64,000 bases of DNA from a virus, in the IMG/VR virus record IMGVR_UViG_3300045988_159113, one strand, 5' to 3'. Below, piece after piece: positions 21,334 to 39,017 of the stretch; position 1 is the stretch's first letter, and each line of letters opens with the position of its first letter. Below the pieces are notes generated by a model. It saw only the letters and a program-made list of their open reading frames with translations, had not been told where the DNA came from and searched no databases. A program made the translations under genes and the position numbers.

Positions 21334-22340
21334 ATACATTAAAATACTGGTATTATTCCAAGAAGCAAAAGACATTTGCTTTTCTTGGATTCCCGTCTAT
21401 TGATGATTCACATATCTCACGTGTACAATTTCCAATTACTATTTCTGATTCTTCTGGGCCTCACAGGTTCACTAACGAGAATGCACTTGTTTCTTATTGT
21501 GCTGAGCACAACCGACAAGTAGAGAAAGAGTACGAGGAAACATTCAAAATAGAACCTCCATATCTCTTACAGCCATATATTGATTACGATGGCAGTATGA
21601 CGTATTATGTTTATTACAGAGATCGTGAGCTTGTATTTGAAGATATGCATGTCATTCCTAAGCTTAACAAAGACATTTGGAATACTGTGGAAGATGCTCC
21701 TATTTACGAATTTCTTAGAAGGCATCGCGGTCAACTGTTTGATTCTGCGATGATGACACAGTTTCACAAGTTCGCGCTGGCGAATGAAGTGTTCTCTCCA
21801 TGTCATGCGACCTTTGGACGTGTTAGGTTTGCAGTGAAGCTAGGGGATCGCATAAGTATTGCAGAAGTTTGTGGACGTCTTAGCAGAGAAGACCCTTGCT
21901 TCTTGAACTTTGACAGCAAAGCAGAGTCAAACAAAGAGGTTTTCGAGTATTACAACATATCACGAGAATATCTTTCCAATCTCTTCCACATCGATACAAC
22001 AGGAGATTGGCCGTACTCTGCAAAACAAACAGTGTATGACATCATCAATTACATAAACAGTACAAAATACGCGAACTGTTCGATACCTCAGGGAATAATT
22101 ATTCAAGGCAATGTTGTCAAGTATCAATCTGCAACATTTACCATAGAGCAAACTAAAAACTCAAAGTGGTATTTGTGCGGTGATATTAATAGCATCCTTG
22201 AAATGTTCGGGCTCGATAGCAAAGATAAGCTAAGAACATATGTGAATAGTATTCTCGGAGAGAAGAAAAGATCCGGAATCTTTCCTGAATGTGAAACAAG
22301 AGAGGAAATCAAGAAACTCATAACATCAATAACAACATGA
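21330..22340 (+). CDS. PF6 family protein (member J)
   Basis: 336 aa, ATGA-coupled. FKIEPPYLL, DWPYSAKQTVYDIINYIN, NSKWYLCGDI, GIFPECETREEIKKLI. Confidence 0.85.
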   Translation: MNTLKYWYYSKKQKTFAFLGFPSIDDSHISRVQFPITISDSSGPHRFTNENALVSYCAEHNRQVEKEYEETFKIEPPYLLQPYIDYDGSMTYYVYYRDRELVFEDMHVIPKLNKDIWNTVEDAPIYEFLRRHRGQLFDSAMMTQFHKFALANEVFSPCHATFGRVRFAVKLGDRISIAEVCGRLSREDPCFLNFDSKAESNKEVFEYYNISREYLSNLFHIDTTGDWPYSAKQTVYDIINYINSTKYANCSIPQGIIIQGNVVKYQSATFTIEQTKNSKWYLCGDINSILEMFGLDSKDKLRTYVNSILGEKKRSGIFPECETREEIKKLITSITT

Positions 22341-23347
22341 ACAATTTTGCATATTATGTATATAACGACATCAATAATTGTGTTTATAGTCTTGATCTTT
22401 TAAGTGAGACAGTAACCAAGTCGCTTGATTTTTGGATTAATACTCATACTGGATATCATTTTTTCCATGAAATATTTAATTCAAAACCCGAGCTTTTGAG
22501 ATGTCTGAATGATATGAATCAGGCAACGGCTAATTCATACACTAGGACATTTTTGATAGATCCGCCGTATTACGTAAAGCAGTCATGGCAGCCAGTAACG
22601 AACATATTGTCAACTCGTATAACAGCCTATAATATGACCTGTACATTCATTGCAGAAGGAGGAGGTCCTACTGGTTGTGAAAATGGCACGGAGTTCGAGA
22701 AGTTTCTTTTTATGAATAGAGAAAAGCGTTTCGATATTTATTATCTTGCACGCATTCATAAGTTTCTTATCAAATCTAAAATTGTTAGACCAGTTGTGAA
22801 TGATGGGAGAGCCTTGCCTAGGTTAATTGACGATATACTGTTCAATGTTGCCCTTGGTACTGGTGATACAACAACAGCAAAGATTGATAAATTCAGTGGG
22901 TTTTTCCTCAACCTCAAAGGTTGTACTAATGACCAGATCTTCAAGACTTACGGAATAGAAAAAGCAAGTCTTCAAAGATTCCTGACTAAGCCAATGGTCG
23001 CTACTCAGTATTGGCCAGAGGACACGCTGGATTCATTGGCTAAGATTATCAACTATATCAACAACAACTTCTACGCTTTTTGCGGTCCGAAAACAACATT
23101 GTCAATTTCTGGTAATGAAATTATGTTTTTCGGAACTTCTCTTTTCGTTTCACAATTGAAGAATGGGAAGTGGTACATCAAAGGTGATATGGAAAAGATA
23201 TGTCAGCTGTTTGGTGTATCCACTTGTGTAGAGCTTAGGCGTTTTGTTGATAGAACACTTGGGGAGAAAATACGCCATGGTATATTTCCCGAGTGTGATT
23301 CGAGAGATGAGATTTTTAAATTACTAGATAAAGTGAAAAATGTCTGA
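22337..23347 (+). CDS. PF6 family protein (member K)
   Basis: 336 aa, ATGA-coupled. FLIDPPYYV, YWPEDTLDSLAKIINYIN, NGKWYIKGDM, GIFPECDSRDEIFKLL. Confidence 0.85.
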   Translation: MNNFAYYVYNDINNCVYSLDLLSETVTKSLDFWINTHTGYHFFHEIFNSKPELLRCLNDMNQATANSYTRTFLIDPPYYVKQSWQPVTNILSTRITAYNMTCTFIAEGGGPTGCENGTEFEKFLFMNREKRFDIYYLARIHKFLIKSKIVRPVVNDGRALPRLIDDILFNVALGTGDTTTAKIDKFSGFFLNLKGCTNDQIFKTYGIEKASLQRFLTKPMVATQYWPEDTLDSLAKIINYINNNFYAFCGPKTTLSISGNEIMFFGTSLFVSQLKNGKWYIKGDMEKICQLFGVSTCVELRRFVDRTLGEKIRHGIFPECDSRDEIFKLLDKVKNV

Positions 23348-24323
23348 TTTAAAATATCTATATTATTCAATTAAACAAGGGAAGCTTCTAGCTCTTTATC
23401 TTGAAGATGGAAAGTTTGACCTTTACCCTGTAAGATTTCCGTTTGAATTTGAATCGAAAACTTTTTCTGGTCCAACTGGACTTGTTCTTTTTTGTGAAAG
23501 TTATAACAAAACAACAGCGAAGAAGTACAGGAAGCTTTACGGAATCAAACCACCATATGTTCTTCATACTTATATTGGTATCGGAGGAGAAGTTGTGTGT
23601 TTATTTACTTTTCACGGGAACAAATTGTCTGTTACTGATGGATTGGACTTTCCAAAATTAAACACTACAATTTGGAATCAGGAAATTGATGCGCCACTTG
23701 ATAACTTCTGCAAACAACACCAAGACAAAATGTTCAACTTGTCGGCAGTGATTGCATTTCACAGGTTCTTCATTGATAGCATGGTTATCGCACCGATAGG
23801 TCCCGGCTATTTTAATGCAAAACTTGACGGGATTATTTATCATACTGAGATAAGAGCAGATTCAGATTTTTGGTATCTGTATTTTTCAAATTCTCTATCA
23901 AACGATCATATCTTTGAGTATTATAATATACCAAAAGATGAAGTTTTGGAAGTGATAAACCAAAAGCATTGGGCTGGGGCTTGGCCAGAGTCAAGTAAAG
24001 AAAACCTGTTCAAACTTATTGATTATATCAACAGAAGGTACTATGCAAATTTTGTATACGAGAGTTTTAAGATCACGGAAAATTCTATCGTGTCCAATTT
24101 TGGATGTTTGGATTTCAAGCAGAACAAGAAGAGTGGCGGCTGGTTCCTATCCGGGAATATGAATGTCATTCTCGCTTTGTTCAAACTTGAATCTATAGGA
24201 GATTTGAAAGCTCGTGCGAATGAAATTCTCGGAAAACAAAAACGAAGTGGTATTTTCCCAGAATGTGATTCGAAAACAGAACTCATTGCACTCATAAAAA
24301 CAATTAAAGATGAACGCAGATAA
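23340..24323 (+). CDS. PF6 family protein (member L)
   Basis: 327 aa. YGIKPPYVL, AWPESSKENLFKLIDYIN, SGGWFLSGNM, GIFPECDSKTELIALI. Confidence 0.85.
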   Translation: MSDLKYLYYSIKQGKLLALYLEDGKFDLYPVRFPFEFESKTFSGPTGLVLFCESYNKTTAKKYRKLYGIKPPYVLHTYIGIGGEVVCLFTFHGNKLSVTDGLDFPKLNTTIWNQEIDAPLDNFCKQHQDKMFNLSAVIAFHRFFIDSMVIAPIGPGYFNAKLDGIIYHTEIRADSDFWYLYFSNSLSNDHIFEYYNIPKDEVLEVINQKHWAGAWPESSKENLFKLIDYINRRYYANFVYESFKITENSIVSNFGCLDFKQNKKSGGWFLSGNMNVILALFKLESIGDLKARANEILGKQKRSGIFPECDSKTELIALIKTIKDERR

Positions 24324-25287
24324 TGTATATTATCTTTTCTATGATCAGGTAAATCAAGAATTGATAAAGCTGGATCTGTTGGAACTTTCTGACTTACCAA
24401 ACAAAACATGTTTCGTAACTTTCCCGTTTGTGCTCAATGGTAAATATGCGCACAATGGTCATGACTTGGTTAACTTAATTAACGAGTATAACGGAAGAGT
24501 CTATAACAGGTATCAGGATGAGTACAAGATCAAACCGCCGTATTTCATAAAATGTGCATATAATCAAATCGGACGTGTTGATGTTTCCATATTCTACAAG
24601 AAAAAACATTTCTTGTTTTATGATAATAAGATAAGCAATCCTGACGATTATCCTATTATTGATTCTTTCGTTTCCAAGCATAAGTCTCTACCATTCTGCG
24701 GTGTCTATATGAAGAAACTTCATGAGTTCATTATGGATAACCAAATCGTGCGCCCAAATCCAAAACCAGGAGGCATTTATTTCAATGTTGTGATAAAGGG
24801 CAAGATTTACAAGGCTTATATTTGTAAAGAAAGTACCGATCATTGTTTTCTCTCTTTCCCATTAACAGGAAACAGATATGCCTTTGATTGTTATAATATA
24901 AGCGAGGAAGAAGTGTTGAATGTTCTTGGTATCAATGAGTGGCAAGGTGATTGGCCTGAAACACCAGAAAGAAAAGTGTATGTTCTGCTTGATTATATCA
25001 ACGAGAACCGTATGGCTGGACCTGTTATCGACAGGTTAAAGATAGACGGCAATAAGATCATCACATCTTTTGCTGAGTTCGAGATAAAGCAAACGAAGAC
25101 TGGCAAGTGGTATATTCGGGGAAATATTGAGCAGATATGCTTGTTGTTTAAAGTTCCTAATATTACGGAACTCAAACATCTTGTCAACAAGATAATTGGC
25201 AACAAGATACGGCACGGTGTCTTTCCGGAATGTGATTCGAGAGAAGAGGTCACGAAACTTTTAAAATCAATTAGAGATGACAGATAA
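24310..25287 (+). CDS. PF6 family protein (member M)
   Basis: 325 aa. YKIKPPYFI, DWPETPERKVYVLLDYIN, TGKWYIRGNI, GVFPECDSREEVTKLL. Confidence 0.85.
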   Translation: MNADNVYYLFYDQVNQELIKLDLLELSDLPNKTCFVTFPFVLNGKYAHNGHDLVNLINEYNGRVYNRYQDEYKIKPPYFIKCAYNQIGRVDVSIFYKKKHFLFYDNKISNPDDYPIIDSFVSKHKSLPFCGVYMKKLHEFIMDNQIVRPNPKPGGIYFNVVIKGKIYKAYICKESTDHCFLSFPLTGNRYAFDCYNISEEEVLNVLGINEWQGDWPETPERKVYVLLDYINENRMAGPVIDRLKIDGNKIITSFAEFEIKQTKTGKWYIRGNIEQICLLFKVPNITELKHLVNKIIGNKIRHGVFPECDSREEVTKLLKSIRDDR

Positions 25288-26236
25288 GTTTTATTATCTT
25301 TTTTATGACCGTATAAACGGAAAGATAATCAGATTAGATTTGTTTAACGCTAACCTATCAATAGGCGAAGCCGTTTCTGTGATGTTTCCATGGGCAATTG
25401 ATGGGAGGCTTACACATAATGATGGCGAAGTAGTGATGGCGATCAACAAACACAACCAAAGAACATATAAACGATATATTGAGAAGTTTAAAATCAGACC
25501 TCCGTACTATATCGAAAATGTGCTCGGCGTTCGTGGTATGATCAATGCTATTGTTACTTACAAAAGTAGGTCACTTTTGCTTAAAGAGTACATGCTTGTC
25601 GACAAGTATAATGATGTCGCTCCATTCTTTGCTAAATATGACTATGCGAAGTTTAACATCTGTTATATGATAGGGCTTCACAAGTATATCTTGGACAATC
25701 AGATCATACGTCCTAGCAAACATAATAGCGGAATGTTTAGCGTCATGATACTTGGTAAAAGCTATATCGCGAATGTTGTAGTTTCACTAGATCATTGCTT
25801 CCTTAACATAGAAGGTATATCAAACGGAGCAGTCTTCAATCATTATAAAATAGGTAAATCAAAAGTCCTTGAAGTACTCAGGATAGACAAATGGTACGGA
25901 GACTGGCCAGAGACTACCGAAGACAAGGTGTACGAGTTAATCAACTATATCAACGAGTGCAGAAGCTCAAGCACTAATCCTGATAAAGTTGAGATAAGCG
26001 GAAATGAAATCATCACAGATTTTGCTAGACTTGAAATAAAGCAAAGCAAAAATGGTAAATGGTATATCAGTGGCTCGCTCGAGAATATATTGAAATTGTT
26101 TCATATTGACGACCAAGTCGAGTTGAAGCAAATGGTCAATAACCTTTTCGGATCTAAGCGACGCGCTGGTGTATTCCCTGAACTTGATTCTCGTGATGAT
26201 GTTATTAAACTAATCAAAGTAACGCAACATGAATAG
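25277..26236 (+). CDS. PF6 family protein (member N)
   Basis: 319 aa. FKIRPPYYI, DWPETTEDKVYELINYIN, NGKWYISGSL, GVFPELDSRDDVIKLI. Stop is TAG, with a TGA 2 codons further on. Confidence 0.85.
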   Translation: MTDKFYYLFYDRINGKIIRLDLFNANLSIGEAVSVMFPWAIDGRLTHNDGEVVMAINKHNQRTYKRYIEKFKIRPPYYIENVLGVRGMINAIVTYKSRSLLLKEYMLVDKYNDVAPFFAKYDYAKFNICYMIGLHKYILDNQIIRPSKHNSGMFSVMILGKSYIANVVVSLDHCFLNIEGISNGAVFNHYKIGKSKVLEVLRIDKWYGDWPETTEDKVYELINYINECRSSSTNPDKVEISGNEIITDFARLEIKQSKNGKWYISGSLENILKLFHIDDQVELKQMVNNLFGSKRRAGVFPELDSRDDVIKLIKVTQHE

Positions 26237-27281
26237 AGAAACTGATTTCTTTTATCTATTTTACAATAGAACCAACAAATACTTGGTACAGTTGGATCTG
26301 TTGAGTAATTACTCGGAGAATATATCTTGTCGAACAGTAGATGGCGATAAGTACAAGCTGTATGGCAAGTATTTCAAAGCAGAGGATGAGTTTATCCAAG
26401 CTGTTAATGATTTCAATGTGTCGATGGCTCAAAAGTATTTTAGCAAGTTCAAGATTCTTGCACCGTATAGATTAGAGTGTCAGCTCTTATTCTATATAGA
26501 CGGAGGGGCAGACTACAACATATACATCTCAACACATGACAGATGCTATCGTTTCATTTATGGCAAGGAAACGCCTGCAAACTTTATAGAATTTGCACGT
26601 ATCCGCAATATAGAGCCGGGGACTTTCAATCTTCGCTATATGCTGAACCTACATACTGCACTTTTGAACTCTGCAGTGTTCAGGGCTGGATATGACAGGG
26701 GCAAGTTCTGTTATACTGTAAACTGTGGAGAAAATTCTTTCTGTGCTCATATCGCGAAGTCAAGAGTAAGAGCTGGCTGTTATTTCCTAGCCTTTAGTCC
26801 TAATATTCCGAATGACTACGTCTTCGCGTATTACAACGTCAATAGGCAAAACATCAAGGATCTCTTGACTGTAGACTCCTGGACCGGAAAGTGGCCCGAG
26901 GATGTCGAGTCGACAATCTACGCGATCATGCAGTATATGAACAGAACATATATCGCAAATGCCAATTTTAGTTTTGTAATAGATGATGATGCTGTCATGT
27001 TCAACGGTACCAGATACCCATTCAAACAAGCAAAGAAGGGAGGCTGGTTCTTGTCTGGCAATATTGAGAAGATACTTCAGATGTTCGGTCTTGATAGTGT
27101 CGACTCATTACGTAAGACAGCGAACCTATATCTTGGAGCAAAGAACAGACCGGGAGTTTTCCCAGAATGCGACACAAAAGAAGAGTTGATAAACTTGATT
27201 AAAATGTTCAAAGATGGAGAGCGAAAAATCAAAATTTCCGGTTCTTCTGTACTTCGATCCATGCAGCCGGATGATCTATAA
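26229..27281 (+). CDS. PF6 family protein (member O)
   Basis: 350 aa. FKILAPYRL, KWPEDVESTIYAIMQYMN, KGGWFLSGNI, GVFPECDTKEELINLI. An unusually long tail overlaps the next member by 68 nt. Confidence 0.8.
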   Translation: MNRETDFFYLFYNRTNKYLVQLDLLSNYSENISCRTVDGDKYKLYGKYFKAEDEFIQAVNDFNVSMAQKYFSKFKILAPYRLECQLLFYIDGGADYNIYISTHDRCYRFIYGKETPANFIEFARIRNIEPGTFNLRYMLNLHTALLNSAVFRAGYDRGKFCYTVNCGENSFCAHIAKSRVRAGCYFLAFSPNIPNDYVFAYYNVNRQNIKDLLTVDSWTGKWPEDVESTIYAIMQYMNRTYIANANFSFVIDDDAVMFNGTRYPFKQAKKGGWFLSGNIEKILQMFGLDSVDSLRKTANLYLGAKNRPGVFPECDTKEELINLIKMFKDGERKIKISGSSVLRSMQPDDL

Positions 27282-28233
27282 GTTCCCGCTTATCTGGACA
27301 ACGGACATAGAACACTTGAAGTTCGAGATACTTATTGAAGAACTCGGATCAAGTACTGTATGGTTTCGTGGTATGAAATATGAGAACACGGAGGAACTCC
27401 TGCGTTTTATATCCAAAGAGAACGAGAAGACGCGTAAAAAGTATAAAGAGAAATATGGCATTTTTCCGCCATATGTTATTACTCAATGTACTTTTAACAC
27501 GACTTATTCAATTTGTATTAGAACGCACAATTGCGAAAACTATGCTGTGTTTTTATTTGAAGATGGGGAAAAGCTTCCTGAGTGTATTGCAAATGGAGAA
27601 GTTCCTGTTTTTCGCAATGCAGAAATTAAAGCTAGCGATAGGTTTAATATTAAAACACTCATCAAGTTGCATAACTCCATCGTCTCAAATTATGTAGTAC
27701 GTCCTGCGATTTATTTGGATTGTTGTGATAGGTATGTTGCAAAAATAAACGGCACGCTTTATGATGCTAGGATTGTTAGAGTTGCTGATAATACTTTCTA
27801 TTTACAGTTTTTCACGATTCCCAGCATAAAACTTTTTAAGTATTATGACATAAAGTTTACAGAATACGAGCCTATCATATCTCATGACTTCCGTTTGATG
27901 GATGGCTATATCCCTGTGGATAATAAAGAGCACATCCTAAAAATTCTTGACTTCATCAATAGTAAGCGCTGTGCTATGGAGTATGCATCGTTTACTATCA
28001 AAAGCGATACTATCCTAAGTAATGGATGTATGTTCAAGATAGTCCAAACGCCAACTGGCAAGTGGTACATAAAGGGTAAGAGTGACGACTTCCCTAAGGT
28101 GTTCAAGTGCTCAAGTATGGAGGAGATCAGAGAGTTTGCGATCAAGCTATTCGGGCGAAGGATTACTGGAGTATTCCCAGAGTGCAACACCAGGGAAGAG
28201 TTGTTAACTTTAATCGAGAAGATGAAGAAATGA
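27214..28233 (+). CDS. PF6 family protein (member P)
   Basis: 339 aa. YGIFPPYVI, ILKILDFIN, TGKWYIKGKS, GVFPECNTREELLTLI. Confidence 0.8.
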   Translation: MESEKSKFPVLLYFDPCSRMIYKFPLIWTTDIEHLKFEILIEELGSSTVWFRGMKYENTEELLRFISKENEKTRKKYKEKYGIFPPYVITQCTFNTTYSICIRTHNCENYAVFLFEDGEKLPECIANGEVPVFRNAEIKASDRFNIKTLIKLHNSIVSNYVVRPAIYLDCCDRYVAKINGTLYDARIVRVADNTFYLQFFTIPSIKLFKYYDIKFTEYEPIISHDFRLMDGYIPVDNKEHILKILDFINSKRCAMEYASFTIKSDTILSNGCMFKIVQTPTGKWYIKGKSDDFPKVFKCSSMEEIREFAIKLFGRRITGVFPECNTREELLTLIEKMKK

Positions 28234-29255
28234 TAATCCAACTTTTAGAAGAACCGACTTATCTATACTTTGACCAGATGGTGATGAAAGTCTACCAGCT
28301 GCCAATAATGCATACGATACAGTTGTCGGCTGTTGAAGTTTACAACGTACGACATCCTCAAGGCATCATGTCAATGCGCGAACGAGAAGTTGACCTATGG
28401 TTTCGAGATGCGCATTACAACACGATCGGTGATCTCTTGAAGTATATAAACAAGAGAAACGAGAGAATGTTCAAATATTACGTTGAGAAATTCGGAATTT
28501 CTCCTGCTTACTTTTTGGACCAAGAAGCTGATGCGGATAATGTAGTCATTACCACTATTGTAACACATCTCGATTCTTACCGTTTTGAATGTGATGGTCG
28601 GATAGATTATGAAATAATAGAGAAGACTATTCCCGTTTTCAGTTATGCAGACATCAAAGAAGATGACCGTTTTGGCGCAGAAGTTCTGGTGAAGATGCAC
28701 AACTCCATCATCAAAAACCAGGTGATAAAACCCACCATATACAAGAACGTTTACACCGTAAGAATGGGCGATTTGTTTGCAAAAGCAAAAATCGATACGA
28801 TGGATATAGGTAGGGTGCCTGGCTATCATTTGCATTTTCTATCTTATCATGATAGGATTGTTTTTGATTATTACCACATACGATATTCTGACTTTGCTTA
28901 TGTGATCCCTGATACCGAATTGAGTAACGGGATACCTGTTGGCCCAGAAGAAGATATCAGAAAGCTCATCAACTATATCAATATGACATATTGCGTTTGT
29001 GAGGGCTCAAAGTTTAGTGTGAATGATAATATTATCATCTGCAATAAGCACAAGCTTGAAATTACACAAACGCGAAACGGCAAATGGTATATCAAGGGTG
29101 ATGTTTTACTCGCTTTTGGGTTGGATAGTATGGAGGCAATCAGAAAGGCTGCGTCTGATCTCTTCGGTAAAAAGAGGATGAACGGAGTATTCCCGGAATG
29201 CGATTCCAAGGAAGACCTCCTGCGACTCGTTGAAGTTCTTAGAAAATACAGGTGA
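28230..29255 (+). CDS. PF6 family protein (member Q)
   Basis: ORF track 28107..29255. ATG 28230 (MIIQLLEEPTYLYFDQ) is ATGA-coupled and aligns with family N-termini. FGISPAYFL, IRKLINYIN, NGKWYIKGDV, GVFPECDSKEDLLRLV. Confidence 0.8.
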   Translation: MIIQLLEEPTYLYFDQMVMKVYQLPIMHTIQLSAVEVYNVRHPQGIMSMREREVDLWFRDAHYNTIGDLLKYINKRNERMFKYYVEKFGISPAYFLDQEADADNVVITTIVTHLDSYRFECDGRIDYEIIEKTIPVFSYADIKEDDRFGAEVLVKMHNSIIKNQVIKPTIYKNVYTVRMGDLFAKAKIDTMDIGRVPGYHLHFLSYHDRIVFDYYHIRYSDFAYVIPDTELSNGIPVGPEEDIRKLINYINMTYCVCEGSKFSVNDNIIICNKHKLEITQTRNGKWYIKGDVLLAFGLDSMEAIRKAASDLFGKKRMNGVFPECDSKEDLLRLVEVLRKYR

Positions 29256-32241: not shown

Positions 32242-32403
32242 ATGAAAAAGTTATTTCTTGCTTTCGCAGTGATGGCTGTTCTCGCCGCATGCGGTGGCCA
32301 TAAGGCCAAAAGCGCAAGTAGTGTTAACGATTCGACAGCTGACAGCGTGACAGTTGTTGACTCTCTGGTAATTGACACAACCCTTATTGACAGCGTAAAC
32401 TAA
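32242..32403 (+). CDS. small lipoprotein (53 aa)
   Basis: MKKLFLAFAVMAVLAAC|GGHK: signal peptide with lipobox LAAC. Below the ORF-track cutoff. Followed directly by a terminator. Confidence 0.65.
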   Translation: MKKLFLAFAVMAVLAACGGHKAKSASSVNDSTADSVTVVDSLVIDTTLIDSVN

Positions 32404-32410
32404 AAAGTAA

Positions 32411-32438
32411 AGCCCGGGTATAACTCGGGCTATTTTTG
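32411..32438 (+). terminator. rho-independent terminator
   Basis: AGCCCGG-GTATAAC-TCGGGCT (with a G-T pair), followed by ATTTTTGT. Confidence 0.7.
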
Positions 32439-32533: not shown

Positions 32534-32743
32534 TTGATGAGTAGAAAGAGAAGAAACAATTTCACAAGTCTCGAACTTGATAAACGCAAGTATGTCGTAG
32601 TGGATGAAGAAGACGGGAGCATATCCATCTATAACATCACACCGCGATATCATATCTGCATTGTCAATTATAAGTCGAAAGACCAGGAGTACGCGCGAAA
32701 TTGTATCATGGAAACTTTAGACTATTTGAAAAGAGACATATGA
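32534..32743 (+). CDS. hypothetical protein
   Basis: ATG ORF, 69 aa. Confidence 0.55.
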   Translation: MMSRKRRNNFTSLELDKRKYVVVDEEDGSISIYNITPRYHICIVNYKSKDQEYARNCIMETLDYLKRDI

Positions 32744-33516
32744 GAAGAGTGAGACATTTAACCGTTAGAAGCCGCAATGTATCATGTCGGCCTCTACGAG
32801 AGTTAGAGGTTCCCGTTCGTACTCTGTACAGAATGGGAAGTGCCACACCGATTGAACGAATCTTTCGTTCTCCTTTACGTTATCTTGAGATAAACACAGC
32901 CCATGGCTGTCTTATCTCTGGTGATAAGATAAAGATGAAAAGAGCTTTCAATGAGTGTGGCGTACATACTGCGGAGTGGTTCATCGCTCATAACAGAGTC
33001 GATGCCAGAGGTAAAATTCAGCGTTGGCTTCCAACCTGGGGTGTCATCATTGCAAAGAGGTTGAACTCATCGGGTGGCCGTGGTATCTATCTTATACGAA
33101 ATGTTGGAGACTTGGACCAGATCCACGACGACATCACGAAGTATATTTTCGAGAGATATTACAACTACACGAAAGAGTACCGCGTACATGTCAGCAAATT
33201 CGGATGTTTCTATACATCAAGAAAGATGTTGAGAAATACCGCAACTGTGAGATGGCACAGACATTCTGAAAACTCCGTTTTCATAAATGAAGAAAACCCG
33301 ATGTTTGACAAGCCGACTAACTGGGACGAGATAGTCGCCGATTGTATCAAAGCCCTCAAGCATATGCAGCTTGACATCGCAGCGTTCGATGTCAAGTGTA
33401 CAAGAGACGGGCGCTTTATACTCTTGGAGAGTAATTCCGCACCAGCACTTGGTGAGCAAGGCATCGAGAAATACAAAAACGAATTAAAGAAAATCATAAA
33501 CGATAAATTAAGATGA
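32740..33516 (+). CDS. ATP-grasp ligase (RimK-like)
   Basis: ORF track 32701..33516. ATG 32740 is ATGA-coupled. GVIIAKRLNSSGGRGIYLI, KEYRVHV, and DIAAFDVKCTRDGRFILLESNSAPAL are typical ATP-grasp blocks. Confidence 0.7.
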   Translation: MRRVRHLTVRSRNVSCRPLRELEVPVRTLYRMGSATPIERIFRSPLRYLEINTAHGCLISGDKIKMKRAFNECGVHTAEWFIAHNRVDARGKIQRWLPTWGVIIAKRLNSSGGRGIYLIRNVGDLDQIHDDITKYIFERYYNYTKEYRVHVSKFGCFYTSRKMLRNTATVRWHRHSENSVFINEENPMFDKPTNWDEIVADCIKALKHMQLDIAAFDVKCTRDGRFILLESNSAPALGEQGIEKYKNELKKIINDKLR

Positions 33517-34361
33517 GTGAGTTCGGTTATACAAACTATCACACAATTTACAAGAGTGTTGGAGATGTTGATCATGCGATGGGTGAGGATTCTTGTTTTC
33601 ATACCATCACCAAGGATTCCGGTTTGAAGATGATGAACAATGTGATCACTGTGCGGTTCTATGCTACCATTGACTACATACGGGATAATCAGAACAATAA
33701 CTATTGCCCGTTTAGCGAGGACGAGATCCGCCAGTATCTGCACATTATCCAGACTTACAGACCCTTTGAGTTCAAGCTTGACACATGTTTCGGAACCGCA
33801 AACGATATAGAAGATAGCGACGACGACTACGACGATGATGTTGAGTACAAGTACTATGAGCTTGAGTTGAAGATCAACGACTCGGTACTCTGGAACAAGT
33901 TCATCTTGAAAATGGTTCGCCCGTTATATGAATATCCGTTCAACTTCGCACTTCGCGATACCTTCAAAATGATGACTATCCCGAAGTTCAGAGAGTATGG
34001 GTTGTTCAATATCTATATGATGGTCGGCTATATCTTCAAGACTACTAGCTACATCTCAGTTTGTGATGATCAGTTTGTTTGTTCTTGTTATCGGAACATT
34101 CCGCAGTTCATGAAGAAGGCAGACCTCATCAAGCGTATTGAGAGTATGAGCCAGGCACATTTGGCAGGAGAGACAAGAACTCCTGAATTCAATAATGTTG
34201 TCTCATATTCTGAGAGTGATTGCGGTGACTTCGGCGACTGGCTCGACAATCGATACTTCAACACAACAAACGTGAGAGAGGTGGAGTACTGGTTCGACGA
34301 GGAGATGTTCGAGGAGAGAGTAGAAATTTATTCTGAACTTATAGAAAGATTTGTGAAGTAA
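33513..34361 (+). CDS. hypothetical protein with an acidic insert
   Basis: ATGA-coupled ORF, 282 aa. Contains DIEDSDDDYDDDVEY. No recognisable domain. Confidence 0.7.
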   Translation: MSEFGYTNYHTIYKSVGDVDHAMGEDSCFHTITKDSGLKMMNNVITVRFYATIDYIRDNQNNNYCPFSEDEIRQYLHIIQTYRPFEFKLDTCFGTANDIEDSDDDYDDDVEYKYYELELKINDSVLWNKFILKMVRPLYEYPFNFALRDTFKMMTIPKFREYGLFNIYMMVGYIFKTTSYISVCDDQFVCSCYRNIPQFMKKADLIKRIESMSQAHLAGETRTPEFNNVVSYSESDCGDFGDWLDNRYFNTTNVREVEYWFDEEMFEERVEIYSELIERFVK

Positions 34362-35008
34362 TGAGAAAATTGTATTGTGTAGGATGGGGTAGAAGCTATG
34401 CCAACTGGTTCCGTGATGTTGAATTGACCGGAGATTTTGAGACTCCCAAGTTTCAGATCGAAGATGCGGATATTGTCCTCTTTACTGGTGGTGAGGATGT
34501 GAGCCCTTATCTTTATGGTAAGGCTCCACACCCTACGAGTTATTGGACAACATCAAGAGACGAGATGGAAGTTGAAGCCTTCAAGCGTATACGTCCCGAT
34601 GCTCTGGCATACGGTACATGTCGTGGCCTGCAACTGCTTAACGTTATGAACGGCGGCATTCTCTGTCAGGATGCTACTGATCACTGGTGTTCAGGTACGC
34701 ATGAGATACACAACGACACTGAGTCGTACCGTATCACATCGCTGCATCATCAGATGGTGTATCCTTTCGATCTCAATCCTGACTATTATGACATTCTGTT
34801 TTGGAGTACTCCACGCAGTAAGCATTACGAAGGGGATGGGATCGATCCGACACTCTACCACAAGTTTGGCGAGCCTGAGATTGTGCTTTATCACAAGCCA
34901 GGATTACCCAAGTGTCTTGGAGTGCAAGGACACCCTGAGATGATGTCTCCCAATAGCCCGGTTGTGAACATGTTGAATAACTTAATAGATGACATTCTTA
35001 AAAAATAA
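34361..35008 (+). CDS. class I glutamine amidotransferase-like / peptidase C26 (gamma-glutamyl hydrolase-like)
   Basis: TAATG-coupled. Nucleophile elbow GTCRGLQLLNV and catalytic GVQGHPE. Confidence 0.7.
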   Translation: MRKLYCVGWGRSYANWFRDVELTGDFETPKFQIEDADIVLFTGGEDVSPYLYGKAPHPTSYWTTSRDEMEVEAFKRIRPDALAYGTCRGLQLLNVMNGGILCQDATDHWCSGTHEIHNDTESYRITSLHHQMVYPFDLNPDYYDILFWSTPRSKHYEGDGIDPTLYHKFGEPEIVLYHKPGLPKCLGVQGHPEMMSPNSPVVNMLNNLIDDILKK

Positions 35009-35012
35009 AAAG

Positions 35013-35924
35013 ATGGATTTAAACTTTTCTGAAAAACTTTATGAGCTTCTCGGCTCTGGTGTTAGTTCACGTTACAATTTTAACAACTTCCTTGATGACG
35101 ATGAACCCGATGATAATTTCGGTGAATTCCTGGAGAAGGTGAAGATCGGATCCGATCCTGAGCTGTTTATCATAAACACAAAGACAGGATCTGTTGTGTC
35201 TTCTATCGGATTGATACCTGGAGTGAAGGGTGCGCCTTGGGTGGACAAGTCGTGGGTCAAAGGTTATGGCTTGGAGACTGACAACATCCTTGCGGAGTTT
35301 AATATTCCACCCGCTACATCTTGTGAAGCTTTTGTCGACAGTATGGAGTTCATGAAGGATTACATAGACAAGTTTGTCAAGTCTAAGAATCCAGACCTTG
35401 GCATCGCGCACAAGGCAAGTGCAATGGTGCCAGACGATCAACTTCAGAGCGAAGAGGCGAAGCTTTTCGGGTGCAGTGTCGACTACAACGCATACACAGA
35501 AAACGCAAACCCAAAACCTTGCGGAGAAGCTACGAACCTAAGATCGATAGGTTGTCACATTCATGTTTCATATCCACGCAAATCTCAAGTAAAGAGTATA
35601 AGCTTGGTTAAGTATATGGACGTATTCGTAGGTATACCTTCTGTGATTCTTGATGCAGGAGAGGATGCAGTAAAACGTCGTGAACTGTACGGAAAGGCTG
35701 GATGTTTCAGGCTTACCAGGTATGGGATGGAATACCGACCTTTATCTGGCCGGTTCCTGGCAAACACAGATCTTGAAGAGTTCATGTACAAGGCAACACT
35801 TCACGCCCTCGGCGCTTGGTTCTATGATTATAGACTCCCAAGTGCTGATGATGTTCAGCGTTGCATCAATACAGGAGACATTAATCTCGCAATCCAACTC
35901 ATCAATGATTACAAACTTGTTTAA
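35013..35924 (+). CDS. phage-type COOH-NH2 ligase (amidoligase)
   Basis: ORF track 34989..35924; ATG 35013 lies just after the upstream stop. IGSDPELFI, YGLETDNILAEFNIPPA, LRSIGCHIHVS, and CFRLTRYGMEYRPLS resemble the phiEco32-like COOH-NH2 ligase family. Confidence 0.6.
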   Translation: MDLNFSEKLYELLGSGVSSRYNFNNFLDDDEPDDNFGEFLEKVKIGSDPELFIINTKTGSVVSSIGLIPGVKGAPWVDKSWVKGYGLETDNILAEFNIPPATSCEAFVDSMEFMKDYIDKFVKSKNPDLGIAHKASAMVPDDQLQSEEAKLFGCSVDYNAYTENANPKPCGEATNLRSIGCHIHVSYPRKSQVKSISLVKYMDVFVGIPSVILDAGEDAVKRRELYGKAGCFRLTRYGMEYRPLSGRFLANTDLEEFMYKATLHALGAWFYDYRLPSADDVQRCINTGDINLAIQLINDYKLV

Positions 35925-35951
35925 CTTTTAGAAAAGAAAGAGAGGTCTATT

Positions 35952-37316
35952 ATTTGTGGCATTTTTGGATACATAAAGTCTAAACCAGAACCGTTTGACT
36001 TTATGGAGTTCTGCACTTTAGGAGTGCATAACGATACAAGAGGAAAAGATTCTGTCGGTATTTATATCGATGGACAAACTGAGTATTATTGTAAGGGCAA
36101 GAACAATAGCCTGTTCTCGGAGTTTATCTCCAAGAGCAGGCTATTGCAGTCTGTAGAGGTTGCACAAGTTGCATATGGTCATGACCGTGCAGCTTCCATT
36201 GGCACCGTATCTATTGAGACTGCACAGCCCGTAGTGTTAAAAGAAGATGACAAGATCACATATGTGCTTATGCACAATGGCACCATCTATAATTATGAGG
36301 ATCTAGCCAAAAAGTATATTCCAGATGTGGATATCAAGGGGATGACTGATTCCCAGGTTATGGCGCGCATATTCTACAAAGCAGGATATGATGCACTCAA
36401 TGAATATATCGGTGGTGCCGTGTTTGCCATTATCGATTACCGCGGAGAAAAACCAAAGTATCTATTCTGGCAAGGGCACAGTAAGAACACGCAGTATTCA
36501 CAAACCAGCCAGCAGGAAGAACGCCCGCTGTTCTTCTTGAAGAGTAAAGGCGAGATGATGTTTTCATCTCTTGATACATATCTTGACGCATTCAGGAGAC
36601 AATCAACAAAGTTGGTGCCGACTCCAAACTTGCTGATAGAGTATGATCCAGAGACTGAGGAGTTTATCTCACTTGAAGAGTATGACAGGAAGAATTGCTT
36701 TCAGACTAAGCCATACGTCGCAACCACTACCACATATTACGGAAACAACAACTATGGAAGTAGTACGTGTAATTATAGCCATAGCACTAATCGCGGCACT
36801 TCTTGCTATTCAAGCGGTTATGTAAACACAGACACGCACACCGGACAATGTCGCAGAGGCGCAAGTCTTTTGCATGGCAGCTATAGCATCAGCACCTATG
36901 GCAACATATCGGAAAGCGCCAACCAGAACGGATCGAATTATATGACCATGTGGTTCTTCAATGGTATACTCATGAAGAACGAGCAAGCATTCATATATCT
37001 CACAAAGTTCTGTAAGGAGTGCGGCATTAGTATTGATGAGTGTTTCAAATGGTATGATGACTTGGTTTATTATCTCTCGCCTTACCCTTATCGCGAGAAG
37101 AAGATCGGAGGAATTCCCTTCATGTTCAAAACCAATGATCCCGCAGGCGGTGAAGAGTACACAGGAGATGTACTTTATCCGTTTTCTACATACTCCAAGC
37201 GATATGTTAATGGTTCCTATGTATCAACAAGGACATCAACATTTATCGAATCGCTTGAAGCGTATAACAAAACAAAAGACGATAAGTTAGATATAGACGT
37301 TTTAATGAAAGTATAA
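35952..37316 (+). CDS. class II (Ntn) glutamine amidotransferase with C-terminal extension; non-ATG (ATT) start
   Basis: The ORF track starts at internal ATG 36003. The frame is open from 35925 and reads I-CGIFGYIKSK...RGKDSVGIY...HNGTIYNY, the canonical MCGIxG N-terminus. The only initiator-like codons before Cys are ATT 35949/35952. AAAGAGAGG lies at 35937-45. Confidence 0.7.
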   Translation: MCGIFGYIKSKPEPFDFMEFCTLGVHNDTRGKDSVGIYIDGQTEYYCKGKNNSLFSEFISKSRLLQSVEVAQVAYGHDRAASIGTVSIETAQPVVLKEDDKITYVLMHNGTIYNYEDLAKKYIPDVDIKGMTDSQVMARIFYKAGYDALNEYIGGAVFAIIDYRGEKPKYLFWQGHSKNTQYSQTSQQEERPLFFLKSKGEMMFSSLDTYLDAFRRQSTKLVPTPNLLIEYDPETEEFISLEEYDRKNCFQTKPYVATTTTYYGNNNYGSSTCNYSHSTNRGTSCYSSGYVNTDTHTGQCRRGASLLHGSYSISTYGNISESANQNGSNYMTMWFFNGILMKNEQAFIYLTKFCKECGISIDECFKWYDDLVYYLSPYPYREKKIGGIPFMFKTNDPAGGEEYTGDVLYPFSTYSKRYVNGSYVSTRTSTFIESLEAYNKTKDDKLDIDVLMKV

Positions 37317-38534
37317 ATGGCAGAAATTATTTCAGATTTTAAGAATGGCGCTCCTGTTATTGCAAGGGGAACAGAGTTTGTAGACAACAAAGTTGCACTT
37401 TTACACGACAAGAAGAGGTCAACAAAAATGTTGGTAGAGGTCTCAGAAAAGACTCTCCCGTATATAGCATTTGCTAATACGATGGGTGCATATGTGATCA
37501 AGTCGCAGTATACCGAGGATGAGCTTTTCTATCTTATGAACACTATGGGAACCGGCAGTTTCCCGTATACATTCGAGAGGCGATACGAAGCAATGGACAG
37601 CTTCAACCTCTTCAATGGTCATGAGGTGATAGAGAAGGATATCGAATTTGAACTGGCTAAGTTCATGCCTTACACTTTTGGTATTGAGTACGAAACGTCT
37701 ATGGGATATATTCCTCAGGATGTTTGTTTCAGAAATGGTCTCATCCCTTTGAGGGATGGGTCCATCTCTGGCTTGGAGTATTCAACAACCGTGATGCAGG
37801 GAAACGATGGACTCAATCTTGTCTATCAGCAGCTTGAGGCTCTGCGTAAGTTTACCTATTTCAACAAGGAGTGTTCCCTTCATGTTCATATGGGAGGCTA
37901 TCCTATTGATCCTATGGCGATCTATGCCTTATATAGAGTTTGCTATTTCTTGCAGGAAGAGATGGCAGAGTTCTTGCCCGACTGGACTTTCGAGACTTCC
38001 AAGTATAAGAAGAGCGGGAAGGACTATTGCCATAAGCTCGCAAACTACAAGACATTTGGCGAGCTCTATGAGAATATCGCACAGCAGAAGTTCATGGGAA
38101 GCCTGGAGCAGCCGCATCCAAGAGATGAGGAGAGAAGCCATAAGTGGGATTGCACAAGCAGATACACATGCGTCAACTTGTTGAACCTCATGTGTTATGA
38201 CAAGTGCAAGACTGCGGAGTTCCGATTCCTGCGTCCTACCTATAACTTCAAGAAGATCTATTACTGGCTCGCAATCTTCAATGCCATACTCAAGTATAGC
38301 GAAGACCTCTTCGCTAAGAGTGACAAGACAGAGAAGGGTATCGAGCAGTTGATCTATGACGACAACACCTCCATCTATCTAATTGCCAGCTCGGTTTATC
38401 CCAAACCTCTGGCAGATAAGATCGAGGATTTCGTCAACAAGCTGTATGTAGCAGTAGGTAATCAGAGAACAAACGGTGATCTCTATGGCAAAGATACGGC
38501 TATTGAGGATGCCATTATCGGGACCAGGTTATGA
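37317..38534 (+). CDS. amidoligase (Amidoligase_2-like, GCS2/glutamine-synthetase fold)
   Basis: 405 aa. FGIEYETS, IPLRDGSISGLEYST, CSLHVHMGGY, and TAEFRFLRPT blocks. Confidence 0.6.
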   Translation: MAEIISDFKNGAPVIARGTEFVDNKVALLHDKKRSTKMLVEVSEKTLPYIAFANTMGAYVIKSQYTEDELFYLMNTMGTGSFPYTFERRYEAMDSFNLFNGHEVIEKDIEFELAKFMPYTFGIEYETSMGYIPQDVCFRNGLIPLRDGSISGLEYSTTVMQGNDGLNLVYQQLEALRKFTYFNKECSLHVHMGGYPIDPMAIYALYRVCYFLQEEMAEFLPDWTFETSKYKKSGKDYCHKLANYKTFGELYENIAQQKFMGSLEQPHPRDEERSHKWDCTSRYTCVNLLNLMCYDKCKTAEFRFLRPTYNFKKIYYWLAIFNAILKYSEDLFAKSDKTEKGIEQLIYDDNTSIYLIASSVYPKPLADKIEDFVNKLYVAVGNQRTNGDLYGKDTAIEDAIIGTRL

Positions 38535-38800
38535 ACGAGTCAGATTTTATTGAGAGAGAATTAAACCTTTTAATGGACGAAATGTCCAACTTACATATTA
38601 ACGAATTTAATTTTGACGATTATGCCGAGGAAGAAGAAGAATCAGCAACCAGTGAGTCAGCCAGTACAGATGGCGAATGTGTATGTGGAGAGAGTGGAGA
38701 GTTATGTCTCGAGGGATCCGAGTGTTTGGACGAAGACCTTGAAGGAGAAGAAGATTTTGAAGACACAGAGGAGGATCCACAAGCATTCCTTGAAGAGTAA
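38531..38800 (+). CDS. highly acidic small protein (89 aa)
   Basis: ATGA-coupled to the amidoligase. AEEEEESATSESASTDGECVCGESGELCLEGSECLDEDLEGEEDFEDTEEDPQAFLEE. Ends in -EE. Confidence 0.6.
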   Translation: MNESDFIERELNLLMDEMSNLHINEFNFDDYAEEEEESATSESASTDGECVCGESGELCLEGSECLDEDLEGEEDFEDTEEDPQAFLEE

Positions 38801-39017
38801 GACCTCAGCTCCATGGAGAGAGATTCCAGTATACGGAAAGGTTATTCTGTACTTGAAGCCTGGACCTCTTGACAAGGAGAATTTCAAATCTACCGTTTCA
38901 TTCAAGTGTGGACAGGCTGACATTCCGGAGATCGTGAACAAGAGAAAAAATCAACTCATCAAGTACTTCTGGAATGGCCGCACTTACTTTCCGGGCGAGT
39001 TTCCATTTTGGCATTGA
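38622..39017 (+). CDS. hypothetical protein; 5' part overlaps the acidic ORF in another frame
   Basis: ORF track 38613..39017 (TTG); the first ATG is at 38622. Only 38801-39017 is unique (WREIPVYGKVILYLKPGPLDKENF...FWNGRTYFPGEFPFWH). The start or mode of expression is unresolved. Confidence 0.4.
   Translation: MPRKKKNQQPVSQPVQMANVYVERVESYVSRDPSVWTKTLKEKKILKTQRRIHKHSLKSKTSAPWREIPVYGKVILYLKPGPLDKENFKSTVSFKCGQADIPEIVNKRKNQLIKYFWNGRTYFPGEFPFWH

What the first reader, a model, noticed from the sequence alone, without database searches (positions are those of the whole stretch)
32740..38800. Six-gene peptide-ligase/amidotransferase cluster with a possible built-in substrate
The cluster is a set of consecutive, coupled genes:
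- RimK-like ATP-grasp ligase (32740).
- Unknown protein with an acidic insert (33513).
- GATase1/peptidase C26-like gamma-glutamyl hydrolase (34361; GTCRG and GHPE motifs).
- Phage-type COOH-NH2 ligase (35013).
- Ntn class II amidotransferase (35952).
- Second amidoligase (37317).
- An 89-aa extremely acidic protein ending in -EE (38531).

Context:
- Comparative genomics by the Aravind group has predicted that combinations of COOH-NH2 ligases, GAT-II and ATP-grasp enzymes in phages make peptide-like metabolites or add peptide tags to proteins. As far as I know, no function has been demonstrated.
- This version holds three ligases, an amide donor, a hydrolase (a possible eraser) and a C-terminal-Glu-rich protein. 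RimK extends the C-terminal Glu residues of ribosomal protein S6.
- That combination looks like a writer, eraser and substrate set for poly-glutamylation-type modification. The mechanistic reading is inference.
Basis: partly seen in the sequence, partly recalled or inferred. Interest (0 to 1): 0.7.

Follow-up and report, generated by a model that had tools for sequence, protein, structure and literature searches.

The report
Phage amide-ligase operon, crAss-like version
This is the crAss-like-phage version of a widespread, phage-only operon of ATP-dependent amide-bond ligases and glutamine amidotransferases. Its product is still unknown, and the small acidic protein proposed as its built-in substrate is a lineage-specific add-on, not a conserved part.

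Summary
Seven back-to-back + strand genes (32740-38800) encode an ATP-grasp ligase, an unknown 282-aa protein, a peptidase-C26/class-I GATase, a phage COOH-NH2 ligase, an Ntn class-II glutamine amidotransferase, an Amidoligase_2 enzyme and an 89-aa acidic protein. All catalytic residues are intact.

The window is from a large crAss-like phage. The cluster is this group's form of the operon predicted by Iyer/Aravind (2009) and Hardies (2013) in LUZ24-, phiEco32- and RIO-1-like podoviruses. I found no functional experiment.

Across 41 de-duplicated lineages:
- COOH-NH2 ligase, GAT-II and Amidoligase_2 always co-occur (41/41).
- C26 is in 37, the unknown family in 33, ATP-grasp in 28 and GGCT in 8.
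- The acidic ORF is in only 2.

The last 60 codons of the acidic ORF overlap a conserved basic ORF out of frame, and the overlap evolves mainly under that ORF's constraint. Its C-terminus is not conserved (-EE or -EN).

So the ligase/amidotransferase reading is right. "RimK-like" is too specific, and "writer, eraser and built-in substrate" is weakly supported. Most likely the operon is a glutamine- and ATP-driven pathway for a gamma-glutamyl-amide or peptide-like product, with the target unknown.

The parts
32411..32431 (+). Terminator-like hairpin (9-bp stem, 6 G-C pairs, then a T-run) that closes the upstream unit. It marks the likely 5' boundary of the transcription unit.
32534..32743 (+). 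69-aa ORF of unknown function. Its stop overlaps the ATP-grasp start by 4 nt. It is 100% identical in the close relatives, and a 66-aa ORF sits at the same place in L011.
32740..33516 (+). ATP-grasp carboxylate-amine ligase (258 aa) of the peptide-bond-forming assemblage. K63, K106, E146-x-R148, D217 and E230-x-N232 are conserved. It is an optional module of the cassette.
   Evidence: motif meaning from PMC4431377
33513..34361 (+). 282-aa protein of unknown function with an acidic loop (about residues 97-112). It belongs to a family seen here only inside this cassette in crAss-like phages, in 1-2 copies. C28, R136 and E140 are nearly invariant. No known fold matches.
34361..35008 (+). Peptidase C26 / class-I glutamine-amidotransferase-fold enzyme (215 aa) with an intact Cys-His-Glu triad (GTCRG ... 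GHPE).
35013..35924 (+). Phage phiEco32-type COOH-NH2 ligase (glutamine-synthetase/GCS2-like fold, 303 aa). Invariant D48/E50, E95, H182/H184, R222/R233 and E240/R242.
35952..37316 (+). Ntn (class II) glutamine amidotransferase (454 aa), translated from an ATT start so that Cys is residue 1 after Met removal. C2, R79, N109-G110 and D133 are intact. A disordered linker (258-287) is followed by a C-terminal domain (290-454) of unknown fold.
37317..38534 (+). Amidoligase_2 (glutamine-synthetase-like fold, 405 aa). Invariant E124/E126, E154, H189/H191, R282 and E301/R303. It is always adjacent to the GAT-II gene.
38531..38800 (+). 89-aa acidic protein. The N-terminal helix-like segment is conserved in ~50% relatives. 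The poly-acidic, Cys-containing tail varies in length. The ORF is lineage-specific.
38622..39017 (+). 131-aa basic ORF (MPRKKKNQQ...) that overlaps the acidic ORF out of frame over 38622-38800. It is under clear purifying selection and is probably not part of the cassette.

Best explanation
**What it is.** The cluster is the crAss-like-phage form of a phage-restricted operon that makes or remodels gamma-glutamyl-amide or unusual peptide bonds early in infection. It sits next to the replication genes.

**Shown here.** Every enzyme keeps its catalytic residues. The trio COOH-NH2 ligase + Ntn glutaminase + Amidoligase_2 is the invariant heart. The GAT-II and Amidoligase_2 genes are always adjacent, even where the gene order is shuffled.

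**Inferred mechanism.**
1. Each glutamine-synthetase-fold ligase phosphorylates a carboxylate with ATP and couples it to an amine.
2. The Ntn domain hydrolyses glutamine at Cys1 and hands ammonia to Amidoligase_2. It might instead process a gamma-glutamyl amide. The result is a carboxamide.
3. The optional ATP-grasp ligase adds a further amino acid.
4. The C26 enzyme, and GGCT in other lineages, cleaves a gamma-glutamyl amide bond as a trimming, release or reversal step.

**Product and target.** The product is most likely a small amidated gamma-glutamyl or peptide-like compound, or such a group placed on a host molecule. The target is not determined.

**The acidic protein.** The 89-aa acidic protein is a recent, lineage-specific neighbour. 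It is not a defining component.
For: - Domain and catalytic-residue evidence.
- Fold of the Ntn domain: AF2 pLDDT 88.6, and the best Foldseek match is the GlmS glutaminase domain 1xff with TM 0.70.
- Synteny in cr108_1, tf, Privateer and LAh_9.
- Synteny in 80 IMG/VR loci. De-duplicated into 41 lineages: GAT-II and Amidoligase_2 in 41/41, C26 in 37, the unknown family in 33, ATP-grasp in 28 and GGCT in 8.
- GAT-II and Amidoligase_2 stay adjacent in either order. They occur as a bare pair in OM43 phages (PMC10580990).
- The COOH-NH2 ligase is essentially absent from cellular genomes: 21 hits in 185,579 species, mostly phage-like MAG contigs.
- Two independent gamma-glutamyl-bond-cleaving families (C26, GGCT) are recruited to the same cassette.
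- The literature describes the operon in the same terms (PMC4819975; PMC5498523; PMC6256558).
- Location beside helicases, primase and NrdD, with a terminator-like hairpin just upstream.
Against: - No experiment on any member was found, so substrates and product are inference.
- The C-terminal domain of the GAT-II protein has no recognised synthase fold. Ammonia transfer to Amidoligase_2 therefore rests on adjacency only.
- The COOH-NH2 ligase and Amidoligase_2 profiles find no solved structure.
- The conserved unknown family has no assigned role and could change the picture.
- Presence of the COOH-NH2 ligase in all loci is by construction, because the loci were seeded on it.
- Absence of ATP-grasp is judged only within 9 kb flanks.
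Confidence: 0.5

Rival explanations
1. First reader's model. The ATP-grasp (and other) ligases polyglutamylate the C-terminus of the co-encoded 89-aa acidic protein, as RimK does with S6. The C26 enzyme acts as eraser.
For: - The acidic ORF is translationally coupled to Amidoligase_2 and ends in -EE.
- A shorter acidic ORF with a conserved N-terminal segment holds the same position in relatives at ~50% identity.
- The ATP-grasp has the ExR/ExN signature of peptide-bond-forming ligases.
Against: - The acidic ORF is in 2/41 lineages, and in 2/28 of those with ATP-grasp.
- The terminus is -SEEN in L013/L014.
- The tail overlaps a conserved basic ORF and follows that ORF's constraint.
- The ATP-grasp scores 24 bits against 143 for rimK_fam.
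- The ATP-grasp gene is five genes away from the acidic ORF.
- The model gives no role to two GS-fold ligases and two amidotransferases.
Confidence: 0.08
2. Literature hypothesis. The cassette modifies the peptide stems of host peptidoglycan or its precursors (gamma-linked Glu, amidation, D-Ala-D-Ala-type bond), for example to block superinfection.
For: - Proposed by Iyer 2009 and Hardies 2013, as reported in PMC5498523, PMC6256558 and PMC10580990.
- The three ligase types plus amidotransferases fit the bond types of stem peptides.
- The ATP-grasp has weak hits to D-Ala-D-Ala ligase models.
Against: - No experiment was found.
- No Mur-ligase, transpeptidase, flippase or secretion signal is in the cluster.
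- The same core occurs in phages of hosts with very different walls: Proteobacteria, a cyanobacterium and crAss-like phages in the tblastn hits, and actinobacteria by literature (mycobacteriophage Marvin; Arthrobacter phages).
- The genes sit in the replication module, not the lysis module.
Confidence: 0.17
3. Amine or polyamine gamma-glutamylation, like PuuA/PuuD, PauA/PauD or IpuC/IpuF. A GS-fold ligase tags an amine with glutamate and the C26 hydrolase later removes it. This would alter host polyamine pools during infection.
For: - A GS-fold ligase with a peptidase-C26 enzyme is the defining pair of those pathways (established knowledge).
- The C26 gene usually lies next to the COOH-NH2 ligase gene.
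- GGCT, which acts on gamma-glutamyl amines and amino acids, is recruited in other lineages.
- Many carriers are Pseudomonas phages.
Against: - The ligases are not members of the PuuA/GlnA families (no NCBIfam hit).
- The model does not explain the Ntn amidotransferase or the ATP-grasp.
- It is inference only.
Confidence: 0.12
4. Modification of phage or host nucleic acid (base hypermodification with an amino-acid-like group), given the position inside the replication and nucleotide-metabolism module.
For: - Neighbours are helicases, primase, a DNA methyltransferase and NrdD in the window.
- Neighbours are primase/UDG in cr108_1, MazG/primase in tf and PRPP synthetase/NAMPT in LAh_9.
Against: - No nucleotide kinase, glycosylase-fold transferase, hydroxymethylase or other known base-modification enzyme is in the cluster.
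- The ligase families are known for amino-acid or peptide carboxylates.
Confidence: 0.08
5. Auxiliary metabolic genes that boost host nitrogen assimilation or glutathione-type metabolism, as claimed for Phage-ZRK32.
For: PMC10945688 reports growth stimulation by a phage carrying a homologous set. That phage is hit H5.
Against: - That study tested no gene.
- The COOH-NH2 ligase family is phage-restricted rather than host-derived.
- The genes do not reach any equivalog model for GS, GshA/B or AsnB.
Confidence: 0.05

Closest known systems
Podovirus 'gamma-glutamyl amide / unusual peptide bond' operon (LUZ24, PaP3, tf, phiEco32, 7-11, RIO-1, PA11; Iyer et al. 2009, Hardies et al. 2013). Also called the peptidoglycan modification cassette.
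   Same: - COOH-NH2_lig type 2, Amidoligase_2, Ntn GAT-II and ATP-grasp lie in one co-directional block beside replication genes.
- GGCT is present in some lineages.
- The function is untested.

   Different: - Gene order differs.
- The window has a recognisable peptidase-C26 gene and the 282-aa unknown family. The podovirus form has instead the tf17/tf18-like paralog pair, the tf20-like protein and DUF7195.
- No homology links these accessory sets (hhalign).
- The window has no GGCT.
crAss-like phage cr108_1 (NC_055878, Steigviridae, Pipoluvirus) gp028-gp034
   Same: Same order: ATP-grasp, unknown family, C26, COOH-NH2 ligase, GAT-II, Amidoligase_2. Identity is 37-53%.
   Different: - cr108_1 has two copies of the unknown family.
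- It has an ATG start for GAT-II.
- UDG follows directly, with no acidic or basic ORF pair.
RimK / RimABK polyglutamylation of ribosomal protein S6
   Same: An ATP-grasp ligase is present, and in this lineage there is a protein with an acidic C-terminus ending in Glu-Glu.
   Different: - The ATP-grasp is far below the RimK family cut-off.
- The known eraser RimB is a retropepsin-like protease (PMC11957791), not a C26 enzyme.
- The acidic ORF is not co-conserved.
Gamma-glutamylation pathways for amines (PuuA/PuuD, PauA/PauD, IpuC/IpuF, AtdA1/AtdA2). From established knowledge.
   Same: A glutamine-synthetase-fold ligase is paired with a peptidase-C26/class-I-GATase-fold hydrolase.
   Different: - The ligases here belong to different, phage-specific families.
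- There are extra Ntn amidotransferase, second ligase and ATP-grasp genes.
- No oxidase or dehydrogenase steps are present.
NAGGN synthesis (Ngg ATP-grasp dipeptide ligase + AsnO glutamine amidotransferase). From established knowledge.
   Same: An ATP-grasp ligase plus a class-II amidotransferase make an amidated glutamine-based peptide. There is a weak hit of the Ntn domain to TIGR03104.
   Different: - The hit is 33 bits against a cut-off of 570.
- There is no GNAT domain.
- There is no AsnB-type synthetase domain.
LysW/LysX amino-group carrier protein systems. From established knowledge.
   Same: A small, very acidic, Cys-containing protein is encoded with an ATP-grasp ligase of the peptide-ligase assemblage.
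   Different: - No sequence match was found.
- The Cys pattern and terminal residue are not conserved.
- The gene is not adjacent to the ATP-grasp gene.

Membership tests
Phage COOH-NH2 ligase / amidoligase / GAT-II operon (Iyer 2009; Hardies 2013) | phiEco32-type COOH-NH2 ligase (PF14395) | tested here: met
   41.3 bits against a cut-off of 25. phrog_3815 at 1e-56.
Phage COOH-NH2 ligase / amidoligase / GAT-II operon (Iyer 2009; Hardies 2013) | Amidoligase_2 (PF12224) adjacent to a class-II glutamine amidotransferase | tested here: met
   32.3 bits against 22, and 55.2 bits against 27. The genes abut at 37316/37317.
Phage COOH-NH2 ligase / amidoligase / GAT-II operon (Iyer 2009; Hardies 2013) | ATP-grasp ligase in the same block | tested here: met
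   phrog_2599 at 6.7e-24, with catalytic K/E/ExR/D/ExN residues.
Phage COOH-NH2 ligase / amidoligase / GAT-II operon (Iyer 2009; Hardies 2013) | Gamma-glutamyl cyclotransferase and the DUF7195 small protein, as in LUZ24/tf-type cassettes | tested here: not met
   Neither is in the window. GGCT occurs in 8/41 lineages, and DUF7195 only in the proteobacterial phages.
Phage COOH-NH2 ligase / amidoligase / GAT-II operon (Iyer 2009; Hardies 2013) | Block conserved across phages and placed among replication genes | tested here: met
RimK family alpha-L-glutamate ligase | Score above the curated family threshold | tested here: not met
   TIGR00768 scores 24.3 bits against 143.4. PF08443 scores 20.7 against 21.
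RimK family alpha-L-glutamate ligase | Adds Glu to a protein C-terminal Glu | not testable with these tools
   Needs biochemistry or intact-mass MS.
Class II (Ntn) glutamine amidotransferase | N-terminal nucleophile Cys directly after the initiator | tested here: met
   ATT-TGT with an upstream purine-rich stretch, conserved in W, L002-6, L011 and L013. L013 has no canonical start between an in-frame stop and the Cys. Other lineages have ATG-TGT.
Class II (Ntn) glutamine amidotransferase | Glutamine-binding Arg, Asn-Gly oxyanion hole and Asp; Ntn fold | tested here: met
   R79, N109-G110 and D133 align to the GHxR, HNG and DSE motifs of PPAT. Foldseek gives TM 0.70 to 1xff.
Class II (Ntn) glutamine amidotransferase | Fused acceptor (synthase) domain of a known type | tested here: not met
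   Residues 290-454 match no Pfam, NCBIfam or PDB sequence.
Peptidase C26 / class I GATase | Family score and Cys-His-Glu triad | tested here: met
   PF07722 scores 56.7 bits against 20.5. CRG and HPE align to 3fij.
LysW-type amino-group carrier protein | Sequence or Zn-finger similarity, conserved C-terminal Glu, and a gene adjacent to a LysX-type ligase | tested here: not met
   No family hit. The terminus is -EN in L013/L014, and the Cys number and spacing vary. The gene is five genes away from the ATP-grasp gene.

The most novel reading that the evidence does not exclude
In this clade the phage encodes its own acceptor. The small acidic protein has a conserved N-terminal helix and a poly-acidic, Cys-bearing tail. 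It would be extended by the ATP-grasp ligase, or used as a LysW-like carrier, with the GS-fold ligases and amidotransferases elaborating the tethered group and the C26 enzyme releasing it. That would be a protein-templated or protein-tagging pathway carried by a virus.
Probability: 0.08. Interest if true: 0.8.

Novelty: new variant of a known kind. Interest (0 to 1): 0.4.

Why it matters
**Scale of the open question.** The cassette is one of the more widespread enzyme blocks in tailed phages that still has no known product.
- The COOH-NH2 ligase alone hits 317 of 50,697 phage records.
- It also hits 278 stretches in IMG/VR.

**What this work adds.**
- Abundant gut crAss-like phages carry their own version.
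- The obligatory core is now separated from the optional parts.
- A conserved accessory family with no known fold is flagged.
- The glutaminase gene is shown to be mis-called by gene finders, which lose the catalytic Cys.
- The 'built-in substrate' idea is shown not to be general.

**If solved.** Knowing the product would reveal a new way in which phages rewire host chemistry early in infection.

Tried and rejected
- Megablast of the whole cluster against phage records gave no match.
- tblastn of the unknown protein and of the acidic ORF against phage records gave no match.
- Foldseek of the unknown-protein model against PDB gave nothing below E = 0.3. BFVD returned only crAss-like proteins.
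- Profile searches of the COOH-NH2 ligase and Amidoligase_2 against PDB sequences gave nothing.
- Foldseek of the GAT-II model returned only Ntn domains, so the C-terminal domain stays unassigned.
- My iterative HMM labelling wrongly merged the unknown family with the C26 family. hhalign shows no relation (0.2% probability), and I treated the merge as drift.
- I tested whether the tf17/tf18-like or tf20-like proteins of podovirus cassettes are homologs of the unknown family or of C26. They are not detectably so.
- Rfam found no intron model in the split COOH-NH2 ligase genes.
- PADLOC gave no defence-system match.
- Pfam found nothing in the small ORFs.
- Iyer 2009 and Hardies 2013 are not held in the library. 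Their content is cited second-hand.
- The sigma-70 promoter scan was ignored as uninformative for this phage group.

Full report
**Observation**

The region holds an unbroken run of + strand ORFs with overlapping or abutting stops and starts.
- ATP-grasp: phrog_2599 at 6.7e-24. Only sub-threshold hits to six Pfam ATP-grasp families.
- Peptidase_C26: 56.7 bits against a cut-off of 20.5.
- COOH-NH2_lig: 41.3 against 25, and phrog_3815 at 1e-56.
- GATase_6: 55.2 against 27.
- Amidoligase_2: 32.3 against 22.

The 282-aa protein and the 89-aa acidic protein hit nothing. The acidic ORF has 35 Asp/Glu and 1 Lys/Arg, pI 4.05, and ends in -EE.

A strong terminator-like hairpin at 32411-32431 precedes the block. 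Only weak matches lie inside it. A conserved 69-aa ORF (32534-32743) is coupled to the ATP-grasp gene.

**Catalytic competence**

*GAT-II.* The GAT-II reading frame has no ATG, GTG or TTG before its Cys. The sequence is aaagagagg-N5-ATT-ATT-TGT.
- This arrangement is conserved in the close relatives and in L011 and L013.
- L013 has an in-frame stop six codons upstream.
- All other lineages have ATG-TGT.
- So an ATT start is the only way to keep the Ntn nucleophile. Public gene calls start at the internal ATG and lose it.

C2, R79, N109-G110 and D133 align to the catalytic and glutamine-binding residues of amidophosphoribosyltransferase. The AF2 model (pLDDT 88.6) matches the GlmS glutaminase domain (TM 0.70). 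Behind a disordered linker it has a 165-residue C-terminal domain with no match.

*Other enzymes.*
- The C26 enzyme keeps its Cys and His-Glu.
- Both glutamine-synthetase-fold ligases show the invariant ExE ... E ... HxH ... R ... ExR pattern.
- The ATP-grasp family keeps K63, K106, E146-x-R148, D217 and E230-x-N232. ExR marks the peptide-bond-forming assemblage (PMC4431377).
- It is not a RimK-family member by curated thresholds: 24 bits against 143.

**What the window is**

The best annotated relative is crAss-like phage cr108_1, with 53% identity for the COOH-NH2 ligase. Its gp028-gp034 have the same order. IMG/VR contigs of 117-197 kb carry the whole block at 91-100% identity. Downstream lie helicases, DnaB, primase, a DNA methyltransferase and NrdD.

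**Conservation**

Proteobacterial phages tf, Privateer and LAh_9 have this order:
- two paralogous ~300-aa unknowns
- COOH-NH2 ligase
- a ~195-aa unknown
- Amidoligase_2
- GAT-II
- DUF7195
- ATP-grasp
- GGCT, in some

I fetched 80 further loci seeded on the COOH-NH2 ligase and labelled their ORFs with iterated HMMs. After de-duplication at 70% GAT-II identity there are 41 lineages:

| Component | Lineages (of 41) |
|---|---|
| GAT-II | 41 |
| Amidoligase_2 | 41 |
| C26 | 37 |
| 282-aa unknown family | 33 |
| ATP-grasp | 28 |
| GGCT | 8 |
| Acidic ORF | 2 |

GAT-II and Amidoligase_2 are adjacent in every arrangement, in either order. OM43 phages carry just this pair. The COOH-NH2 ligase is nearly absent from 185,579 cellular species genomes: 21 hits, mostly phage-like MAG contigs.

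**The unknown 282-aa protein**

A profile of close homologs finds 245 representative clusters. C28, R136 and E140 are nearly invariant. The AF2 model (pLDDT 75, pTM 0.80) matches no PDB fold. In BFVD it matches only proteins of two crAss-like viruses: the two cr108_1 proteins gp029/gp030 that occupy the same position in that cassette, and two proteins of ctelJ1 whose genomic position I did not examine. It is unrelated to C26 and to the tf17/tf18-like proteins. It is a conserved, unexplained component of the crAss-type cassette.

**The acidic protein**

- Relatives at about 50% identity (L011-L014) have a 45-51-aa acidic ORF at the same position.
- Its N-terminal segment is conserved (SEI[IL]EAELNLMLRELSNL), but it ends in -RVEE or -SEEN.
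- Every other lineage has an unrelated gene after Amidoligase_2, such as UDG or an endonuclease.
- In the window the ORF has grown to 89 aa by reading 60 codons into the next gene. That gene is a basic 131-aa ORF (38622-39017), which is itself conserved in those relatives.
- Among close relatives, 22 of 25 substitutions in the non-overlapping part of the basic ORF fall on its third codon positions. So do 7 of 11 in the overlap, where they change the acidic protein.
- The N-terminal part is therefore a real gene. The long acidic tail and its -EE end carry little independent constraint.

**Interpretation**

The enzymology fits the operon predicted by Iyer et al. (2009). [quoted passage not shown] Others call it a peptidoglycan modification cassette (PMC5498523; PMC6256558).

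I found no experiment that tests any gene. The only physiological claim is indirect (PMC10945688).

My best reading:
- A core glutamine-dependent amidoligase (GAT-II plus Amidoligase_2), together with a second GS-fold ligase.
- Optional extension by an ATP-grasp ligase.
- Cleavage of a gamma-glutamyl bond by C26 or GGCT.
- The product is a small amidated peptide-like compound, or such a group placed on a host molecule.

The pairing and the step order are inference from adjacency and family chemistry.

The target is open. Candidates are a metabolite, peptidoglycan, polyamines, nucleic acid or protein. The writer/eraser/substrate model is not excluded for this clade, but it cannot explain the cassette in general.

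**Verdict**

This is a correct and careful observation of a known but unsolved phage operon, in a distinct crAss-like variant. The most eye-catching part of the interpretation, a built-in substrate, rests on a lineage-specific, partly overprinted ORF.

Noticed in passing
window 35949-35957 (and L002-L006, L011, L013): The Ntn amidotransferase gene appears to start at ATT. ATT-ATT-TGT lies behind a purine-rich aaagagagg, is conserved across ~60%-identity relatives, and L013 has an in-frame stop just upstream. Automated gene calls start 17 codons later and delete the catalytic Cys.
   Followed up: yes
window 38531-39017: Two conserved ORFs overlap out of frame for 179 nt: an acidic 89-aa ORF and a basic 131-aa ORF. 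The poly-Glu and poly-Lys stretches are the same purine-rich DNA read in two frames. Relatives overlap by only ~56 nt.
   Followed up: yes
L004 8540-9654, L006 same, L005 8540-8793, L092, L093: In several relatives the COOH-NH2 ligase gene is split at its conserved GxHxH active-site motif. The insert is 1.1 kb with a 295-aa LAGLIDADG endonuclease ORF, or ~250 bp without an ORF. This looks like a self-splicing intron, but no Rfam model matched.
   Followed up: partly
window 15927-29255: A tandem array of about 11-14 diverged paralogous ORFs (260-380 aa, 24-46% pairwise identity) of unknown function fills 13 kb upstream of the cluster.
   Followed up: partly
window 32242-32431: A 53-aa ORF has a lipoprotein-type signal (MKKLFLAFAVMAVLAAC...). 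The strongest terminator-like hairpin of the region follows directly.
   Followed up: no
L008 11160-11369, L009 12785-13006, L010 13294-13515: In proteobacterial phages a conserved ~70-aa non-acidic protein (Pfam DUF7195) always follows the GAT-II gene. The crAss-type cassette has no counterpart.
   Followed up: partly
L008 5196-7009 (tf_17/tf_18) and equivalents in L009, L010: The two ~300-aa unknown proteins upstream of the COOH-NH2 ligase in podovirus cassettes are paralogs of each other (hhalign 76%, E 2e-5). This mirrors the 1-2 copies of the unrelated 282-aa family in crAss-like phages.
   Followed up: partly
window 50119-52551: An 810-aa protein matches a phage DNA methyltransferase family (phrog_13671, 1e-101). 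It lies in the same replication module.
   Followed up: no
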